Shown here: positions 36,785-45,875 of the stretch, one piece after another
How positions within the stretch are numbered: position 1 is the stretch's first letter
How the letters are laid out: every line of letters begins with the position of its first letter
Assembly: GCF_024502345.1 (NCBI RefSeq)
Contig: NZ_JALDNN010000001.1
DNA from: Escherichia coli
GTDB lineage: Bacteria; Pseudomonadota; Gammaproteobacteria; Enterobacterales; Enterobacteriaceae
Strand: one strand, 5' to 3'
DNA: 64,000 nucleotides
Made by a program: the position numbers and the translations under genes
The notes under the pieces: generated by a model
Databases searched by the model: none
Seen by the model: only the letters and a program-made list of their open reading frames with translations
What the model was told of the DNA's origin: nothing

Positions 36785-38431
36785 TTATTCAATCTCTTCA
36801 CAGACATCCTGAGTTAATCGCCGCATAATATCTTTCCTTAACAAAAACTTTTGTATTTTACCTGAGGCAGTGCGCGGTAGTTTTTCGATTACCACTATAT
36901 GTTCAGGATATTTATATTTTGCGACCCGTTTACGGCTAAAAAAAGCCACCACCTCTTCCAGCGATAATGAATGATGCGGCGCTTTCAGCACGACATAAGC
37001 GCATGATCGTTCACCTAAACGTTCATCGGGCATTGCAACCACACAGGCATCGTGAATTTTAGGATGCTGCAATAAAATATCTTCCACTTCACGGCTGCTA
37101 ATATTTTCGCCGCCGCGGACAATAATATCTTTCTTGCGCCCGGTTATTTTTATATAGCCAGCCTCATCCATGCGGCAGAGATCGCCGCTGTAATACCAGC
37201 CTTCTTCATCCAGGGCACGGGCGGTTAATTCAGGTTCATCAAAATACCCCATAAACACATTGGGGCCACGCGAGGCTTCTTCACCTTCGCAACCTGGCGG
37301 TAAGGTCTTGCGTGCGTCATCGACCACTTTAATCTCTACACCTGCGGCAGCGTAACCATCGGTGTGCATAAAGCGCGACAAAGGATCATCGAGATTCACC
37401 ACCGCATGCGGCGAACTTTCTGTGGAACCATAAACACTTAATAATTTAATGCCGCGCTGCTGGCATTCACGTGCCACTTTTTTGGGGATTGTGGTACCGC
37501 CGCAAAGAAAGAAACGCAGCGCTGAAAGGTCTGCGGGCTGTTTCTCTAGTAAATTCAAAAGATCATAGACAAACGGCGTTGCGCCGAGCATACAGGTGCA
37601 ACGCTGCTGCTCAAGCAGCGCGAGACACGCATCAGGAGTGAAAATATCTAACAACACGCTGCGAGCACCAATCAAAAATGGTGCCGTTACGCCATGCAGA
37701 AAGCCCGTTGCGTGGCCGAGTGGCGCAGGCATCATAAAGACATCCTGCCAGGTCAGATTCAGCCGCGCGCAATAAGCCCGCTCACTGGCGAGAATATTGT
37801 TATGCGTTAGCATCACGCCCTTTGGCAGACCCTCGGTTCCGGAGGTAAACAGCACCGCAGCTAATTCATCGCCGTGGGTCGTTATCGCCGTGGTCAGTGG
37901 GGTATTGTCGGCGATAATCTGACTTAATGAGAGGGAAGAGGTGGCGGGAGCCAGTTTGTCCACGCCGACAATTTGTTGTAGTTGTGGAAGCTGATTTTGC
38001 AGCGGCAGGATTAAATCTACCGGACGCGTTTGTTTAAACAACGTCGGTGCAAAGAACATTTTTGCCTGACACTTATTGAGCACCCATACCAGTTCTGCTT
38101 CCCGCCAGGAAGGCAACAGCGGTACGGAAACCGCACCGATTTTCAGGCAGGCAAGATAGATAACGGTAAATTCACACCAGCCTGGCAGTTGAAATGCGAT
38201 GCGATCGCCTGATTCAATACCCTTCGCTAACATCCAGTTTGCCAGACAGCTCGCGGCGTGATCGAGTGCGCTATAGGTGTACGATGCTCCATGATTATCG
38301 ACCACGGCAATTTTGTCTGGCATCGCACGAGCGGTCTGCTGCCAGTAATCGGCCAGCGAAGCATCGCCCCATAGCCCTTGCTGACGATACGCCGCACGAC
38401 GTTGTTCGTTAAACGTTAATGTCACTTTCAT
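36785..38431 (-). CDS. fadK: Short-chain acyl-CoA synthetase (anaerobic)
   Basis: 548-aa ORF from MKVTLTFNEQRRAAYRQQGLW; AMP-binding motifs; ORF-track 566-aa extension rejected. Confidence 0.93.
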   Translation of the reverse strand: MKVTLTFNEQRRAAYRQQGLWGDASLADYWQQTARAMPDKIAVVDNHGASYTYSALDHAASCLANWMLAKGIESGDRIAFQLPGWCEFTVIYLACLKIGAVSVPLLPSWREAELVWVLNKCQAKMFFAPTLFKQTRPVDLILPLQNQLPQLQQIVGVDKLAPATSSLSLSQIIADNTPLTTAITTHGDELAAVLFTSGTEGLPKGVMLTHNNILASERAYCARLNLTWQDVFMMPAPLGHATGFLHGVTAPFLIGARSVLLDIFTPDACLALLEQQRCTCMLGATPFVYDLLNLLEKQPADLSALRFFLCGGTTIPKKVARECQQRGIKLLSVYGSTESSPHAVVNLDDPLSRFMHTDGYAAAGVEIKVVDDARKTLPPGCEGEEASRGPNVFMGYFDEPELTARALDEEGWYYSGDLCRMDEAGYIKITGRKKDIIVRGGENISSREVEDILLQHPKIHDACVVAMPDERLGERSCAYVVLKAPHHSLSLEEVVAFFSRKRVAKYKYPEHIVVIEKLPRTASGKIQKFLLRKDIMRRLTQDVCEEIE

Positions 38432-38487
38432 TTTGGACTCTCGAAACAGAACATCAGGCCCGAGATGCGGGCCTGTGGGATGCATGA

Positions 38488-38781
38488 TTAGCCGTAGCGA
38501 AAATCAATACCGAAGGTGCCTGCGGGATATTGCCACTGTTCGAGAATAGTGTTACCGCACAGCACCCGACAGGTGCCGCACTCCAGACAACCGGCAGAAT
38601 CAAAATGAATGTTTCCTGCGTCATCCTGCTTATAAAGTCCGGCAGGGCAGGCTTTCATTAATTTACGGAATTCATTGATATCGGGATTTTCCGCCAGAAT
38701 GATATGCGGGTGGCCCTCATCAACATGGAATTTATTGACGCCTAATTTGATGTCGACGTTAACCGTAGCGTTCTGGCTCAT
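38488..38781 (-). CDS. ydiT: Ferredoxin-like protein (FixX family)
   Basis: 97-aa ORF with Cys cluster (CLECGTCRVLCG). Confidence 0.92.
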   Translation of the reverse strand: MSQNATVNVDIKLGVNKFHVDEGHPHIILAENPDINEFRKLMKACPAGLYKQDDAGNIHFDSAGCLECGTCRVLCGNTILEQWQYPAGTFGIDFRYG

Positions 38782-44266: not shown

Positions 44267-44279
44267 CGTGATACTCCTG

Positions 44280-45875
44280 TTAATGAGCCGCTTCAGGCAG
44301 GACAAAACCCATCGCCGCATCGATAAATAATCTTTCGTCCATCAGTTTGAGTTCTGGCGAAATCACTGGGGTGAAATCCATTTTGTCGAGAATATCTTTT
44401 TGTAAATCGACGCCAGGAGCGATTTCGATTAAATGCAGGCCGTCTTCTTTCAGCGTGAATACAGCACGTTCTGTGATGTAACGAACATCCAGTCCCCGTT
44501 CGAGCGCGATTTTTCCGCTGAAAGTAATTTCCGGTAGTTCCCGAATAAATTTCTTCACCCGTCCTTCCTGGACGATATTTAATTTGCCGTCGGTAATTTC
44601 TGTTTTTAAACTGCCCGCAGTTAACGTGCCGCAGAAAATAATTTTCTTCGAGGTGGCACTGATATCAATAAATCCACCGGTACCCATGATTTTGCCATTG
44701 AATTTATGCACGCCGACGTTACCGTGCTGGTCGACTTCAGCAAAACTCAAATAACAAACATCCAGACCGCCACCGTGATAAAAATCAAACTGGGACGTCA
44801 TATCCAGAATGGCACGGGTATTCACGTTCGCGCCAAAGGCGATCCCCTGTGAAGTAATTCCGCCAATCGGACCTGTTTCTACCGTCAGAATAAAGTCATC
44901 AGCACAACCTTCTTCTCGGGCGACCAGGCCAATGCCGTCAGCAATACCGACGCCGACATTCCCCACCGCGCCTTTACGCATTTCGAATAATGCGCGCCGC
45001 GCAACTAATTTACGTTGGTTTAGGGGCAGGCTAAGTTTGATACTGTCATCAAGGGTGAAGTCACCAGAAATAAAGCGGTTAACCGGTGCACCGCCATACA
45101 GTTGGCTTTGATCCGGATCGACCACCACAATATCCACCAGATAACCCGGAATACGGACAGATTTAGGATGCAGCGTGGCTTTCTTAACCATTTTCTGCAC
45201 CTGCATCATCACAATACCGCCGTTATTGTGCACCGCCTGGGCAATAACCAATGCGTCGAGATACATCACCTCATCTTCAAAAGTGGCGTAGCCTTCACTG
45301 TCGCAGGTGGTAGCGCGAATGAAGGCGATATCTGGCGCAATCGCTTTGTAATAGAGATATTCTTTGTTATCAAACTCGACCAGTTTAATCAGGTCTTCTT
45401 TCGTGACTTCATTCAGTTTGCCGCCTTGCTGGCGTGGATCGACAAATGTCCCGATGCCAATATCACTAATAATACCAGGCTGGTGGGCTGCGGCGGCGCG
45501 TAAGGTTTGTGTAAGTACACCTTGTGGATAGTTATAAGCAATAATTTTATTTTGTTCTGCGAGTTCAGAAATACGCGGCGATTGTCCCCAGTGACCACAT
45601 AATGCCCATTTCACCAGACCTTCTTGCGCCAGAGGACTAATACCACGGTCGGCGCGATCGCCAAGCCCTGTCGGACTAATAATCGATAAATTACGTGGCG
45701 TTTGAGTCTGTTTATATTTATCAGCAAGAGCTGTAATTAACGTGGTGGCTTCCAGAATACCGCCGCCAGCGCCTAACACACAAAGTGTTGCTTCGTCGGG
45801 AATATAATTCACCGCTTCCTGTGCCGACAGGACCGGCACTCGTCCATTAATACGAGGTGGTTTTACAGGTTTCAT
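44280..45875 (-). CDS. ydiF: Acetate/acyl-CoA:acetoacetate CoA-transferase (fused alpha/beta)
   Basis: 531-aa ORF; family I CoA transferase. Confidence 0.93.
   Translation of the reverse strand: MKPVKPPRINGRVPVLSAQEAVNYIPDEATLCVLGAGGGILEATTLITALADKYKQTQTPRNLSIISPTGLGDRADRGISPLAQEGLVKWALCGHWGQSPRISELAEQNKIIAYNYPQGVLTQTLRAAAAHQPGIISDIGIGTFVDPRQQGGKLNEVTKEDLIKLVEFDNKEYLYYKAIAPDIAFIRATTCDSEGYATFEDEVMYLDALVIAQAVHNNGGIVMMQVQKMVKKATLHPKSVRIPGYLVDIVVVDPDQSQLYGGAPVNRFISGDFTLDDSIKLSLPLNQRKLVARRALFEMRKGAVGNVGVGIADGIGLVAREEGCADDFILTVETGPIGGITSQGIAFGANVNTRAILDMTSQFDFYHGGGLDVCYLSFAEVDQHGNVGVHKFNGKIMGTGGFIDISATSKKIIFCGTLTAGSLKTEITDGKLNIVQEGRVKKFIRELPEITFSGKIALERGLDVRYITERAVFTLKEDGLHLIEIAPGVDLQKDILDKMDFTPVISPELKLMDERLFIDAAMGFVLPEAAH

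What the first reader, a model, noticed from the sequence alone, without database searches (positions are those of the whole stretch)
36785..45875. Anaerobic acyl-CoA / electron-transfer flavoprotein cluster (fadK-ydiTSRQ, ydiP, ydiO-ydiF)
An acyl-CoA synthetase, ETF alpha/beta, a FixC-like ETF oxidoreductase, a FixX-like ferredoxin, an acyl-CoA dehydrogenase and a CoA-transferase sit together with an AraC-type regulator. This looks like a self-contained, still only partly characterised anaerobic short-chain acyl-CoA redox module. It is conserved and known, not novel, but its physiological substrate is not settled to my knowledge.
Basis: partly seen in the sequence, partly recalled or inferred. 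Interest (0 to 1): 0.3.

Follow-up and report, generated by a model that had tools for sequence, protein, structure and literature searches.

The report
Known E. coli ydi acyl-CoA/ETF cluster
This is the well-known E. coli fadK-ydiTSRQ / ydiP / ydiOF gene cluster, correctly read by the first stage, but comparative and regulatory evidence shows it is one unit with the neighbouring quinate/shikimate genes, which suggests its unsettled substrate is a plant-derived ring acid rather than a fatty acid.

Summary
Window 36785-45875 holds eight intact genes, fadK, ydiT, ydiS, ydiR, ydiQ (minus strand), ydiP (plus), ydiO and ydiF (minus). At least 80% of the stretch 36000-47000, which contains the cluster, is present in 5348 of 5426 complete E. 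coli genomes. As an object it is already known.

The "self-contained short-chain acyl-CoA module" reading is only partly supported. All YdiF+YdiO orthologue loci with enough flank also carry a YdiB-type quinate/shikimate dehydrogenase and/or a type I dehydroquinase, usually with a YdiN-like transporter. This holds across at least five gene orders, and in three of them these genes sit inside the ACAD/ETF operon. It also holds after transfer into Sutterella (Betaproteobacteria). Paralogous modules without YdiF never carry these genes.

In the window, the ydiQ and ydiN promoter regions share an identical triplet of half-sites (spacing 21 + 73 bp). No such triplet appeared in 200 shuffles.

My best hypothesis (about 0.5) is a Cai/Fix- and Car-type CoA loop. 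It would reduce the enoate of shikimate, or a quinate-derived acid, as an anaerobic electron sink. The published rival is anaerobic butyrate/short-chain fatty-acid beta-oxidation (about 0.3). Interest is moderate, because the hypothesis is cheap to test.

The parts
36785..38431 (-). fadK (ydiD): AMP-forming acyl-CoA ligase, 548 aa
   Evidence: Pfam AMP-binding plus AMP-binding_C. NCBIfam NF004758, 1091 bits, with the profile starting at residue 19 of the long ORF. The second-best family is cyclohexanecarboxylate-CoA ligase TIGR03208, 422 bits, below its cut-off. RefSeq annotation.
38488..38781 (-). ydiT: FixX-like ferredoxin, 97 aa
   Evidence: NCBIfam FixX model, 143 bits, below the equivalog cut-off of 166. 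The Cys pattern is C45-P plus C65-x2-C-x2-C-x3-C. Its start overlaps the end of ydiS by 4 nt.
38778..40067 (-). ydiS: FixC / ETF:quinone-oxidoreductase-like flavoprotein, 429 aa
   Evidence: NF007450, 975 bits; FixC model, 640 bits, above its cut-off of 610. Pfam ETFQO_UQ-bd, 37.9 bits. The best solved structure is Thermotoga EtfABCX FixC, 7KOE_C, 242 bits.
40123..41061 (-). ydiR: ETF alpha subunit, 312 aa
   Evidence: Pfam ETF plus ETF_alpha. NF008884, 691 bits. Four of the five best PDB matches are subunits of complexes I know as electron-bifurcating (5OL2_A, 7QH2_A, 6FAH_A, 7KOE_B; the third-ranked, 5OW0_A, I could not classify), all ahead of the human and Paracoccus ETFs.
41081..41845 (-). 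ydiQ: ETF beta subunit, 254 aa
   Evidence: Pfam ETF. NF008998, 499 bits. The best PDB match is CarD of the caffeyl-CoA reductase-ETF complex, 6FAH_B, 86 bits.
41932..41979 (-). Conserved promoter-proximal element upstream of ydiQ. It contains the half-site TGCAAGATTGT at 41971-41961.
   Evidence: A near-identical 48-mer is present in Citrobacter, Kosakonia, a soil MAG, Brenneria and Dickeya. A PWM trained on the other species scores it at 65 bits, the top hit among 127,906 window positions.
42034..42065 (-). Distal tandem half-sites AACAAGATTAT (42065-42055) and TGCAAGATTGT (42044-42034), 21 bp apart, in the ydiP-ydiQ spacer
   Evidence: Sequence. The position is conserved at 115-118 nt from the ydiP start in seven of the eight other loci examined; GCA_015654745 is the exception, with its sites at 26 and 47 nt. 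Together with 41971 they form the triplet x, x+21, x+94.
42161..43072 (+). ydiP: AraC-family regulator with a cupin sensor domain, 303 aa. It is divergent from ydiQ and convergent with ydiO.
   Evidence: Pfam HTH_18, Cupin_2 and AraC_binding. RefSeq annotation.
43115..44266 (-). ydiO: CaiA-like acyl-CoA dehydrogenase / enoyl-CoA reductase, 383 aa
   Evidence: Three ACAD domains. NF008997, 787 bits; the nearest other model is crotonobetainyl-CoA dehydrogenase CaiA, 452 bits, followed by acryloyl-CoA reductase, 234 bits. The canonical YEG glutamate is replaced by Gly (RIGGGTDE). A Glu is present in NFEMERL at the IVD/LCAD-type position.
44280..45875 (-). ydiF: fused alpha/beta family I CoA-transferase, 531 aa
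   Evidence: Pfam CoA_trans. Full-length match to PDB 2AHU/2AHV/2AHW 'putative enzyme ydiF'. The ydiF stop lies 13 nt before the ydiO ATG.
45982..46008 (.). G+C-rich hairpin between aroD and ydiF. On the transcribed (minus) strand no T-run follows it.
   Evidence: It is a weak terminator at best, so read-through from ydiN-ydiB-aroD into ydiFO is possible (inference).
46019..46777 (-). aroD: type I 3-dehydroquinate dehydratase.
   Evidence: RefSeq annotation. It co-travels with YdiF/YdiO in all orthologous loci. It sits inside the ACAD/ETF operon in L009, L090 and L092.
46808..47674 (-). ydiB: NAD(P)-dependent quinate/shikimate dehydrogenase. It belongs to the conserved unit.
   Evidence: RefSeq annotation. 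Orthologues of 75-92% identity accompany YdiF/YdiO in Citrobacter, Kosakonia, Brenneria, Dickeya, Serratia, Sutterella, L009, L091 and L092.
47686..48951 (-). ydiN: MFS transporter, first gene of the ydiN-ydiB-aroD run. It belongs to the conserved unit.
   Evidence: RefSeq annotation. An MFS gene of 63-87% identity heads the unit in the type A and Sutterella-type loci and in L009; in L090 and L092 the MFS gene at that position is only 46-47% identical.
49073..49177 (-). Triplet of half-sites upstream of ydiN: TGCAATATTCT (49177), TGCAAGATCTT (49156) and TGCAATATTCC (49083). The spacing of 21 + 73 bp is the same as upstream of ydiQ.
   Evidence: These two are the only such triplets in the window, and none appeared in 200 shuffles. 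The region 49044-49091 is the best non-self hit of the ydiQ-element PWM. The same result holds in L010, L013, L018, L019 and L020.

Best explanation
What it is (shown). This is the E. coli chromosomal cluster fadK-ydiTSRQ / ydiP / ydiO-ydiF, intact.

How it is built (shown). It encodes:
- an ATP-dependent acyl-CoA ligase (FadK);
- a family I CoA-transferase (YdiF);
- a CaiA-like acyl-CoA dehydrogenase / enoyl-CoA reductase (YdiO);
- an ETF heterodimer (YdiQR);
- an ETF:quinone-oxidoreductase-like flavoprotein with its small ferredoxin (YdiS, YdiT);
- an AraC-type regulator (YdiP).

It runs from ydiN to fadK. It includes the MFS transporter YdiN, the quinate/shikimate dehydrogenase YdiB and the dehydroquinase AroD.

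How it most likely works (inferred).
1. YdiN imports a hydroaromatic acid such as quinate or shikimate.
2. YdiB and AroD interconvert quinate, 3-dehydroquinate, 3-dehydroshikimate and shikimate. This creates the 1-ene-1-carboxylate, which is an alpha,beta-unsaturated acid.
3. FadK primes the system by making the first CoA thioester with ATP.
4. YdiO reduces the ring C=C of the enoyl-CoA. Electrons come through YdiQR, which YdiS/YdiT connect to the quinol pool (or to NADH and a low-potential carrier).
5. YdiF transfers CoA from the reduced product to fresh substrate and releases hydroshikimate.

This is the same logic as carnitine/crotonobetaine reduction by CaiABC plus FixABCX, and as caffeate reduction by CarABCDE. 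It would give E. coli an anaerobic electron sink from a plant- and microbiota-derived metabolite.

YdiP would switch on both transcription units through the shared tandem half-sites.
For: Identity.

CoA-loop reductase architecture.
- After its own model, YdiO's nearest families are CaiA (452 bits) and acryloyl-CoA reductase (234 bits).
- YdiQ's best solved relative is CarD of the caffeyl-CoA reductase complex. YdiR's best relatives include the ETF subunits of the C. difficile Bcd, lactate dehydrogenase and caffeyl-CoA reductase complexes. YdiS's best relative is FixC of EtfABCX.
- Ligase, transferase, ACAD and ETF occur together, as in the Cai/Fix and Car systems (established knowledge).

Link to hydroaromatic genes.
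- (a) Every locus with a YdiO orthologue of at least 77% identity, a YdiF, and enough flank also has a type I dehydroquinase, and all except L090 have a YdiB-type dehydrogenase. These are Escherichia, Citrobacter x6, Kosakonia, a soil MAG, Brenneria, Dickeya, Serratia, GCA_015654745, L009, L090, L091, L092 and Sutterella L093/L094/L101-L103.
- (b) At least five gene orders exist. In L009, L090 and L092 the dehydrogenase and/or dehydroquinase lie immediately downstream of ETF-alpha on the same strand, with gaps of 2-200 nt; in L009 and L090 they lie between ETF-alpha and FixC.
- (c) None of about 11 paralogous modules has them. In these modules YdiO identity is 62-70%, the transferase (where one was seen) is type III, and YdiF is absent.
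- (d) A Coriobacteriaceae MAG places a YdiO-like ACAD (39%) directly upstream of a type I dehydroquinase, with a divergent shikimate dehydrogenase and a LysR regulator.
- (e) The whole nine-gene unit is 54-84% identical between E. coli and Sutterella, a betaproteobacterium. That implies transfer as one unit.

Shared regulation.
- The window has two identical same-strand triplets of [TA][GA]CAA[GT]AT at x, x+21 and x+94. One lies upstream of ydiQ and one upstream of ydiN. There were 0 triplets in 200 shuffles.
- In six further loci with both regions held, a pair with 21-22 bp spacing lies upstream of ydiN and another in the ydiP-ydiQ spacer, and these are the only such pairs in the locus. Serratia shows the ydiN-side pair; C. 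werkmanii and Dickeya show only the spacer pair.
- A PWM trained on ydiQ elements finds the ydiN upstream region as its best non-self hit in the window and in L010, L013, L018, L019 and L020.

Physiological plausibility.
- Sutterella wadsworthensis and Eggerthella lenta reduce the enoate of shikimate to hydroshikimate. This stimulates their growth with formate. Shikimate is detectable in faeces (preprint 10.1101/2022.12.26.521950).
- A MAG assigned to S. wadsworthensis carries a YdiO orthologue whose relatives sit in this same unit.
- ydiQRST were 20-32-fold up in stationary phase of a shikimate-overproducing E. coli (PMC4015609).
- FadK's nearest other family is cyclohexanecarboxylate-CoA ligase.
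- YdiO has its catalytic Glu at the IVD/LCAD-type position. That placement is associated with substrates that are bulky near C2/C3 (plus family knowledge).
Against: - No experiment ties these E. coli genes to quinate or shikimate. No paper in the searchable library does so either.
- Published genetics points to fatty acids. FadK is most active in vitro on C6-C8 acids, and a fadD fadK double mutant cannot use fatty acids (PMC9329746).
- Salmonella ydiQRSTD is described as anaerobic butyrate utilisation (Bronner 2018, seen only through PMC9530198, PMC6249985 and PMC13170390).
- ydiO is said to matter for fatty-acid use in a fadE mutant.
- aroD is also the only biosynthetic dehydroquinase of E. 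coli (my own knowledge, not tested here). Part of its linkage could therefore have another cause.
- In E. lenta the shikimate-induced enzyme is a flavin reductase, not an ACAD. The Sutterella enzyme has not been identified.
- The transcriptome observation compares growth phases and has many possible causes.
- L090 lacks a YdiB-type gene in the operon, and L092 lacks FixCX.
- The direction of electron flow and the exact thioester are inferred. The thioester could derive from shikimate, 3-dehydroshikimate or another compound.
- The FAD/NADH-site motif of YdiQ (GEGSGDLYAQQVG) matches neither the bifurcating nor the non-bifurcating consensus.
Confidence: 0.5

Rival explanations
1. This is the published reading. 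The cluster provides the activation and first dehydrogenation steps of an anaerobic beta-oxidation of short- and medium-chain fatty acids such as butyrate.
- FadK or YdiF makes the acyl-CoA.
- YdiO oxidises it to the enoyl-CoA.
- Electrons pass through YdiQR and YdiST to the quinone pool and on to nitrate or another acceptor.
- FadIJ, encoded elsewhere, completes the cycle.
- The adjacency to aroD-ydiB-ydiN has no functional meaning.
For: - Reviews report that the pathway encoded by ydiFO, ydiQRST and fadHIJK needs an alternative electron acceptor (PMC3967523).
- FadK prefers C6-C8 acids in vitro, and a fadD fadK mutant cannot use fatty acids (PMC9329746).
- Salmonella ydiQRSTD is linked to butyrate utilisation and is deleted in S. 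Typhi.
- ydiO is said to be important for fatty-acid use in a fadE mutant.
- YdiS has the quinone-binding domain of ETF-QO, which normally receives electrons from ETF.
Against: - The cluster has no hydratase, 3-hydroxyacyl-CoA dehydrogenase or thiolase.
- The 2022 review finds no FadR, CRP or anaerobic regulation of fadK, and calls the evidence for YdiQR lacking.
- Deleting or overexpressing YdiO changed butyrate formation little in reverse beta-oxidation strains (PMC13126070).
- A beta-oxidation role explains neither the need for both a ligase and a transferase, nor the strict co-travel with YdiB, AroD and YdiN through rearrangements and inter-class transfer. It also does not explain the shared operator architecture with the ydiN promoter.
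- YdiO's closest characterised relatives work physiologically as reductases.
Confidence: 0.3
2. The substrate class is the same but the direction is opposite. The unit oxidises reduced alicyclic acids made by other gut microbes, such as hydroshikimate or cyclohexanecarboxylate derivatives. After CoA activation, YdiO dehydrogenates the ring, and ETF and YdiST deliver the electrons to quinone. YdiB and AroD then process the resulting shikimate or dehydroshikimate, for example as salvage into aromatic biosynthesis.
For: - The synteny and operator evidence is the same as for the main explanation.
- ETF-QO-type enzymes usually pass electrons from ETF to quinone, and YdiS carries that domain.
- FadK and YdiO give sub-threshold hits to cyclohexanecarboxylate-CoA ligase and cyclohexane-1-carbonyl-CoA dehydrogenase models.
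Against: - As far as I know, E. coli has no downstream route for using dehydroshikimate as a carbon source. The pay-off would therefore be small.
- The combination of transferase and ligase is typical of reductive CoA loops.
- The nearest characterised relatives (CaiA, acryloyl-CoA reductase, CarC-CarDE) are reductive.
- In Sutterella the observed reaction is reduction of shikimate.
Confidence: 0.1
3. The module is a generic enoyl-CoA reductase loop for some other unsaturated acid, such as crotonate, acrylate or hydroxycinnamates released from chlorogenic acid. YdiB, AroD and YdiN would be linked only because they handle the quinate half of the same dietary conjugates, or because of inherited synteny.
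For: - YdiQ is closest to CarD of the caffeyl-CoA reductase complex, and YdiO matches CarC at 159 bits.
- To my knowledge YdiF uses short acyl-CoAs in vitro. The primary paper is not held.
- Paralogous modules with other partners show that this scaffold is re-used for different substrates.
Against: - Dehydroquinase and shikimate dehydrogenase sit inside the ACAD/ETF operon in L009, L090 and L092. This argues for one pathway rather than loose association.
- No esterase for chlorogenate is present in the unit.
- The shared operator geometry implies one inducer for both transcription units.
Confidence: 0.1

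Closest known systems
E. coli K-12 fadK(ydiD)-ydiTSRQ, ydiP, ydiOF (annotated y-genes; proposed 'anaerobic beta-oxidation' genes)
   Same: They are the same genes. Gene order, lengths and 98-100% protein identity match RefSeq E. coli genomes. The YdiF structure is solved as 2AHU.
   Different: Nothing is structurally different. The best full-length nucleotide identity to any of 5426 complete genomes is 98.9%, which is ordinary allelic divergence.
Carnitine system caiTABCDE + fixABCX of E. coli
   Same: - The ACAD-type enoyl-CoA reductase is paralogous: the CaiA model scores 452 bits on YdiO.
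- ETF alpha/beta, FixC and FixX are paralogous: the FixA, FixB, FixC and FixX models all hit YdiQ, YdiR, YdiS and YdiT.
- Both systems have a priming ligase plus a CoA-transferase, a dedicated transporter, and a dehydratase that creates the enoate. Both are anaerobic electron sinks. This last comparison is my inference for ydi and established knowledge for cai/fix (fixAB requirement: cited in PMC9329746).
   Different: - YdiF is a family I transferase, whereas CaiB is family III.
- The dehydratase acts on the free acid (AroD), not on a CoA ester (CaiD).
- The transporter is an MFS protein, not a BCCT antiporter.
- The regulator is AraC-type.
- YdiO, YdiR and YdiT score below the CaiA, FixB and FixX equivalog cut-offs. 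They are paralogues, not members.
Caffeate respiration CarABCDE of Acetobacterium woodii (PDB 6FAH)
   Same: The parts list is the same: a CoA-transferase loop, a priming ligase, an ACAD-type reductase and ETF. YdiQ's best solved relative is CarD (86 bits). YdiR matches CarE (123 bits) and YdiO matches CarC (159 bits).
   Different: - CarDE is an NADH-dependent bifurcating ETF that reduces ferredoxin. CarE also has an extra N-terminal ferredoxin domain, which YdiR lacks (312 aa against 396 aa).
- The ydi unit instead has FixC/FixX-type partners.
- The YdiQ nucleotide-site motif is divergent.
Bifurcating EtfABCX of Thermotoga maritima (PDB 7KOE) / FixABCX of diazotrophs
   Same: Both have the four-subunit composition of ETF beta, ETF alpha, a FixC flavoprotein and a FixX ferredoxin. 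YdiS matches 7KOE FixC at 242 bits.
   Different: Those complexes have no dedicated ACAD partner. They split NADH electrons between quinone and ferredoxin. Whether YdiQRST bifurcates could not be decided here.
Flavin (fumarate-reductase-like) shikimate reductase of Eggerthella lenta
   Same: The proposed net reaction is the same, shikimate to hydroshikimate as a respiratory electron sink.
   Different: The enzyme family is unrelated, and that route has no CoA activation. It would be a second, independent solution.

Membership tests
E. coli fadK-ydiTSRQ/ydiP/ydiOF cluster | Each protein passes the NCBIfam equivalog or subfamily model used to name it | tested here: met
   Scores against cut-offs: FadK 1091 vs 736; YdiS 975 vs 466; YdiR 691 vs 528; YdiQ 499 vs 338; YdiO 787 vs 537. 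YdiF is a full-length match to 2AHU.
E. coli fadK-ydiTSRQ/ydiP/ydiOF cluster | Gene order and chromosomal context between ppsA and aroD | tested here: met
   5348 of 5426 genomes hold at least 80% of the 11-kb stretch.
Cai/Fix carnitine (crotonobetaine) reduction system | CaiA, FixB and FixX orthology (equivalog cut-offs) | tested here: not met
   CaiA model 452 vs cut-off 540; FixB 319 vs 549; FixX 143 vs 166. Only the broader FixA and FixC subfamily models pass, at 325 vs 219 and 640 vs 610. The ydi proteins are paralogues.
Cai/Fix carnitine (crotonobetaine) reduction system | Family III CoA-transferase (CaiB), a crotonase-type CaiD and a CaiT antiporter in the locus | tested here: not met
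   YdiF is Pfam CoA_trans, family I. No CoA_transf_3 or ECH domain was found in the eight genes of the finding, and the adjoining genes are annotated aroD, ydiB and the MFS transporter ydiN.
CoA-loop enoate reductase modules in general (Cai/Fix, CarABCDE, acryloyl-CoA reductase) | Co-located ligase, CoA-transferase, ACAD-type reductase and ETF alpha/beta | tested here: met
   The same quartet is kept in orthologous and paralogous loci.
CoA-loop enoate reductase modules in general (Cai/Fix, CarABCDE, acryloyl-CoA reductase) | Physiological flow of electrons into the enoyl-CoA, with product release by CoA transfer | not testable with these tools
   This needs enzyme assays or metabolite analysis.
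Self-sufficient beta-oxidation cluster | Enoyl-CoA hydratase, 3-hydroxyacyl-CoA dehydrogenase and thiolase encoded with the ACAD | tested here: not met
   None of the eight proteins has an ECH, 3HCDH or thiolase domain. The neighbours are ppsA and aroD.
Electron-bifurcating ETF (Bcd/Car/Fix type) | Second (bifurcating) FAD / NADH site in the beta subunit, with the motif GRQAIDGDTAQVG | tested here: inconclusive
   YdiQ has GEGSGDLYAQQVG. The bifurcating CarD has GRQAIDGDTAQVG and human ETF-beta has GKQAIDDDCNQTG. Overall similarity favours the bifurcating group, but the motif is divergent.
Quinate/shikimate utilisation unit (proposed here) | YdiB-type dehydrogenase and type I dehydroquinase co-located with YdiF/YdiO orthologues regardless of gene order | tested here: met
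   They are absent from all paralogous modules.
Quinate/shikimate utilisation unit (proposed here) | Common cis-regulatory sites in front of both transcription units | tested here: met
   Identical half-site triplets at 42065/42044/41971 and 49177/49156/49083, with 0 in 200 shuffles. They recur in other genera. Binding by YdiP was not tested.
Quinate/shikimate utilisation unit (proposed here) | Activity of FadK, YdiF and YdiO on shikimate- or quinate-derived substrates | not testable with these tools
   No biochemical data were found.

The most novel reading that the evidence does not exclude
The eleven-gene unit ydiN-ydiB-aroD-ydiF-ydiO / ydiP / ydiQRST-fadK is a CoA-dependent respiratory system. 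It reduces the ring double bond of shikimate, or of quinate after conversion by YdiB and AroD, to hydroshikimate. It would be a third member of the Cai/Fix and Car class of CoA-loop enoate reductases. It would also be the unidentified shikimate-reducing activity of gut Sutterella, and the long-sought physiological role of YdiB and YdiN in Enterobacteriaceae.
Probability: 0.45. Interest if true: 0.65.

Novelty: already known. Interest (0 to 1): 0.4.

Why it matters
As a sequence feature this is an ordinary, conserved, annotated part of the E. coli chromosome. Its interest lies in function.

Nine of the eleven genes are still y-genes or have disputed roles. The cluster has been used to explain butyrate handling and pathovar evolution in Salmonella, and it has been proposed as an enoyl-CoA reductase for reverse beta-oxidation engineering.

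If the unit really reduces shikimate or quinate, three things follow:
- It assigns a role to YdiB, YdiN, YdiP, YdiF, YdiO and YdiQRST at once.
- It adds a dietary, plant-derived electron acceptor to enterobacterial anaerobic respiration in the gut.
- It offers a gene candidate for the shikimate respiration seen in Sutterella, and for the old observation (my own knowledge) that gut microbes reduce quinate and shikimate on the way to hippurate.

It would also change how the loss of ydiQRSTD in S. Typhi is interpreted. The experiments need only existing Keio mutants and LC-MS.

Tried and rejected
- **Rfam scan of the whole window.** Nothing lies inside the cluster.
- **Consensus promoter/terminator scan.** There was no enrichment over shuffles. 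Only the aroD-ydiF hairpin is worth noting.
- **Bifurcating versus non-bifurcating ETF.** Overall similarity favours the bifurcating group, but the diagnostic beta-subunit motif is divergent. I left this undecided.
- **Simple 11-mer search for ACAATCTTGCA with 2 mismatches.** It was not enriched (19 hits against 25 expected). The signal appeared only when orientation and spacing were considered.
- **An operator site upstream of ydiF.** None was found. ydiFO may be read through from aroD or may have an unrelated promoter.
- **Primary papers.** These were requested but are not held: Bronner 2018, Vick 2015, Rangarajan 2005, Morgan-Kiss and Cronan 2004, and Garcia Costas 2017. Their content is cited only through reviews or marked as my own knowledge.
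- **Literature link to shikimate.** I searched for any published link between ydiFO/ydiQRST and shikimate or quinate and found none. Two apparent leads were irrelevant.
- **Taxonomic identity of L009, L090 and L092.** These have 42-44% G+C and could not be identified.
- **P0027.** This is a 74%-identical YdiO-like gene that stands alone without any partner genes. It is an exception I could not explain.
- **Strain check.** I could not check whether S. wadsworthensis strain DFI.4.78 itself carries the unit. I found only a species-labelled MAG fragment and related contigs.

Full report

Yes. The ORF list shows a run of long ORFs exactly at 36785-45875.

Megablast of 36000-47000 against 5426 complete E. 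coli genomes finds the stretch in 5425 of them. In 5348 it covers at least 80% of the query. The best full-length identity is 98.9%.

RefSeq annotation of the best hit reads, in window order:
- ppsA (+);
- fadK, ydiT, ydiS, ydiR, ydiQ (all -);
- ydiP (+);
- ydiO, ydiF, aroD, ydiB, ydiN, ydiM (all -).

- FadK is an AMP-forming ligase (NF004758, 1091 bits).
- YdiT is a FixX-like ferredoxin. It has one C-x2-C-x2-C-x3-C motif plus a remote Cys-Pro.
- YdiS is a FixC-like flavoprotein with the ETF-QO quinone-binding domain.
- YdiR and YdiQ are ETF alpha and beta.
- YdiP is an AraC-type regulator with a cupin domain.
- YdiO is a three-domain acyl-CoA dehydrogenase.
- YdiF is a fused family I CoA-transferase whose structure is solved (2AHU/2AHV/2AHW).

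The true starts of fadK (38431), ydiQ (41845) and ydiO (44266) lie inside the longest ORFs. This follows from where the profiles begin, from the RefSeq gene lengths, and for ydiO from an AGGAG 8 nt upstream. All genes are intact. No Rfam family lies in the cluster.

**2. What the literature says**

The cluster is known but not settled.
- Nuccio and Baumler list ydiFO, ydiQRST and fadHIJK as anaerobic beta-oxidation genes. These need an external electron acceptor and are degraded in extraintestinal Salmonella (PMC3967523).
- Reviews attribute butyrate utilisation to Salmonella ydiQRSTD, which is deleted in S. Typhi. They cite Bronner 2018, which I could not read directly.
- The 2022 E. coli review states that YdiQR are 'of unknown function' and that 'experimental evidence is lacking'. 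It adds that transcriptomes do not show anaerobic induction of fadK, that no FadR or CRP control is known, and that FadK prefers C6-C8 acids in vitro (PMC9329746).
- A 2026 review notes that deleting or overexpressing YdiO changed butyrate formation little in reverse beta-oxidation strains (PMC13126070).

**3.

I collected YdiO relatives and looked at their genomic contexts. I scanned one genome per species for relatives. I then mapped all twelve window proteins onto every locus with tblastn.

*True orthologues.* In these loci YdiO is at least 77% identical and YdiF is present. They always come with a type I dehydroquinase, and all but one (L090) with a YdiB-type quinate/shikimate dehydrogenase (75-92% identical to YdiB). 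An MFS transporter gene also heads the unit: 63-87% identical to YdiN in most loci, 46-47% in L090 and L092. The gene orders are:
- *E. coli order* (N-B-D-F-O, reversed P, Q-R-S-T-K). This is kept in Citrobacter, Kosakonia, a soil MAG, Brenneria, Dickeya, Serratia and GCA_015654745. ppsA is adjacent only in Escherichia and Citrobacter.
- *Sutterella and L091.* The two halves are divergent and there is no AraC gene between them.
- *L009.* The order is MFS, YdiF, YdiO, ETF-beta, ETF-alpha, shikimate dehydrogenase, dehydroquinase, FixC, FixX.
- *L090.* The dehydroquinase alone sits between ETF-alpha and FixC.
- *L092.* The dehydrogenase and dehydroquinase follow ETF-alpha, and FixCX is missing.

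*Paralogous modules.* Here YdiO identity is 62-70%, there is a second ACAD, usually an extra MFS gene, no YdiF, and a family III transferase where Pfam calls were available. None of them has a dehydroquinase or shikimate dehydrogenase. They occur in Desulfovibrio, Pectobacteriaceae CE70, E. albertii, Phytobacter, Budvicia, Edaphovirga and a second locus in C. youngae.

*A distant case.* A Coriobacteriaceae MAG places a distant YdiO-like ACAD (39%) immediately upstream of a type I dehydroquinase. A shikimate dehydrogenase and a LysR regulator lie divergent from it.

*Transfer between classes.* The Sutterella proteins are 54-84% identical to the window proteins across nine genes. Sutterella is a betaproteobacterium. 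The unit, hydroaromatic genes included, has therefore moved between classes as a block.

**4. Shared regulation, seen in the window itself**

The ydiP-ydiQ spacer contains a 48-nt element (41932-41979, minus strand). It is almost invariant in Citrobacter, Kosakonia, the soil MAG, Brenneria and Dickeya.

I trained a weight matrix only on the other species. Its best hit among 127,906 window positions is this element (65 bits). Its second-best hit is 49044-49091 on the minus strand, 93 nt upstream of ydiN. The ydiN upstream region is likewise the best non-self hit in L010, L013, L018, L019 and L020, but not in L016 or L021.

A sharper result comes from the 8-mer [TA][GA]CAA[GT]AT. It occurs 24 times on both strands of the window, against 20.5 expected. 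Seven of these occurrences fall in the two regulatory regions. Six of them form two identical same-strand triplets at x, x+21 and x+94:
- 42065/42044/41971, reading towards ydiQ;
- 49177/49156/49083, reading towards ydiN.

In 200 Markov shuffles there were no triplets, and 0.01 pairs per shuffle at 21-bp spacing.

In E. coli CFSAN061769, C. youngae, the soil MAG, Kosakonia, Brenneria and GCA_015654745, the only same-strand pairs spaced 21-22 bp in the locus lie upstream of ydiN and in the ydiP-ydiQ spacer. Serratia, whose locus ends before ydiP, shows the ydiN-side pair. C. werkmanii and Dickeya show only the spacer pair.

Tandem half-sites one helical repeat pair apart are typical of AraC-family activators (family knowledge). 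YdiP is therefore the obvious candidate, but binding was not tested. No such sites precede ydiF. The hairpin between aroD and ydiF (45982-46008) lacks a T-run on the transcribed strand, so read-through into ydiFO is plausible.

**5. How it most likely works**

*Architecture.* After its own model, YdiO's nearest characterised families are crotonobetainyl-CoA dehydrogenase CaiA (452 bits) and acryloyl-CoA reductase (234 bits). YdiQ is closest to CarD of the caffeyl-CoA reductase-ETF complex. YdiR's best matches include the ETF subunits of the C. difficile Bcd, lactate dehydrogenase and caffeyl-CoA reductase complexes. YdiS is closest to FixC of Thermotoga EtfABCX. A ligase, a CoA-transferase, an ACAD and an ETF together make up the parts list of the known 'CoA-loop' enoate reductions, namely Cai/Fix and CarABCDE. 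In those systems the ligase primes and the transferase recycles CoA (established knowledge).

*Chemistry.* Shikimate and 3-dehydroshikimate are cyclohex-1-ene-1-carboxylates, that is alpha,beta-unsaturated acids. AroD is the dehydratase that creates that double bond from 3-dehydroquinate. YdiB interconverts quinate with dehydroquinate and shikimate with dehydroshikimate.

*Proposed pathway.* The substrate is taken up by YdiN, converted by YdiB and AroD, and thioesterified by FadK or YdiF. YdiO then reduces the ring C=C with electrons from YdiQR and YdiST. YdiF releases hydroshikimate by CoA transfer.

*Smaller points that fit.*
- FadK's best non-self family is cyclohexanecarboxylate-CoA ligase (422 bits, below its cut-off).
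- YdiO lacks the usual YEG glutamate (RIGGGTDE) and instead has Glu in NFEMERL. This is the position used by isovaleryl-CoA and long-chain ACADs, which take substrates that are bulky near C2/C3 (plus family knowledge).
- ydiQRST were 20-32-fold up in stationary phase of a shikimate-overproducing strain.

*Physiological precedent.* S. wadsworthensis and E. lenta reduce the enoate of shikimate to hydroshikimate. This stimulates their growth with formate, and shikimate is found in faeces (preprint 10.1101/2022.12.26.521950). That text names no enzyme for Sutterella. A MAG labelled S. wadsworthensis carries a YdiO orthologue, and contigs with near-identical proteins carry the full unit.

*What remains inferred.* Substrate, direction of electron flow and electron donor are all inferred. 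Whether YdiQR bifurcates is undecided, because the beta-subunit motif is divergent.

**6. Rivals**

- *Anaerobic short-chain fatty-acid or butyrate beta-oxidation (0.3).* This published reading has genetic support. It does not explain the lack of the other beta-oxidation enzymes in the cluster, the redundancy of ligase and transferase, the strict association with YdiB, AroD and YdiN, or the shared operator. Enzyme promiscuity could reconcile the two readings.
- *Opposite direction (0.1).* The unit would oxidise reduced alicyclic acids towards shikimate.
- *Another enoate (0.1).* The substrate would be a different unsaturated acid, such as hydroxycinnamates or crotonate.

**7. Comparison with known systems and novelty**

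As a sequence feature this is already known. It is the E. coli K-12-type ydi cluster, and it is a paralogue, not a member, of the Cai/Fix system. The CaiA, FixB and FixX equivalog cut-offs are not reached, and the transferase family differs.

It works like the Cai/Fix and Car CoA-loop reductases in its parts list. Membership of a 'bifurcating ETF' class is inconclusive.

The proposal that the unit is a hydroaromatic-acid reductase was not found in the searchable literature. If true, it would be a new variant of a known kind.

**8. Verdict**

The object is ordinary and known. The added value is a specific, cheaply testable hypothesis about its unsettled substrate. It rests on synteny through rearrangement and horizontal transfer, and on a statistically clear shared operator architecture within the window. 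Interest is 0.4.

Noticed in passing
window 50984-51091 (-), 56520-56580 (+), 22188-22312 (+), 26152-26310 (+): Rfam matches above the gathering score outside the finding: RprA sRNA, RydB sRNA, the phenylalanine leader, and the enterobacterial sRNA STnc540.
   Followed up: no
window 49235-50398 (-): A second MFS transporter gene (ydiM, 36% identical to YdiN) lies directly upstream of the ydiN operator region. A paralogous MFS gene is also found next to ydiN in Citrobacter, Kosakonia, Brenneria, Dickeya and Serratia. I did not examine whether it belongs to the unit.
   Followed up: partly
L006 / L023 (E. albertii), L026 (C. youngae), L022 (Phytobacter), L024 / L038 (Budvicia), L027 (Edaphovirga), L004 (Pectobacteriaceae CE70), L002 (Desulfovibrio desulfuricans): These loci hold a paralogous ACAD-ETF(-FixCX)-ligase module with YdiO identity of 62-70%, no YdiF, and usually a second, divergent ACAD. 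Where Pfam gene calls were available there were also an MFS transporter, often a family III CoA-transferase, and in some loci a desulfoferrodoxin-domain gene. The substrate is unknown. No quinate/shikimate genes are present.
   Followed up: partly
L007 / L008 10001-11143: A YdiO-like gene of 74% identity stands alone, with no ETF, transferase or ligase within 10 kb. It lies next to NrfD, 4Fe-4S and multihaem cytochrome genes in an unidentified 57% G+C organism. It is an unexplained exception to the co-location rule.
   Followed up: no
L029-L059 (Eggerthellaceae, Coriobacteriia, Oscillospiraceae and other MAGs): Many gut Actinomycetota and Firmicutes carry YdiO-like ACADs (42-57% identity) next to a ligase and to ETF plus FixC/FixX homologues, sometimes in several copies per genome. 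This suggests a wider family of CoA-dependent reductase modules in 'high-reductase' gut bacteria.
   Followed up: no
window 36000-47000: The best full-length identity to any of 5426 complete E. coli genomes is only 98.9%. Most genomes show a second, unexamined megablast 'place' for this query (median of 2 places per genome).
   Followed up: no
P0001, P0002, P0008, P0022: Several database proteins are over-long gene calls of 495-510 aa. In P0008 a CoA-transferase domain is joined to YdiO. These look like gene-calling or frameshift artefacts at the closely spaced ydiF-ydiO junction.
   Followed up: no
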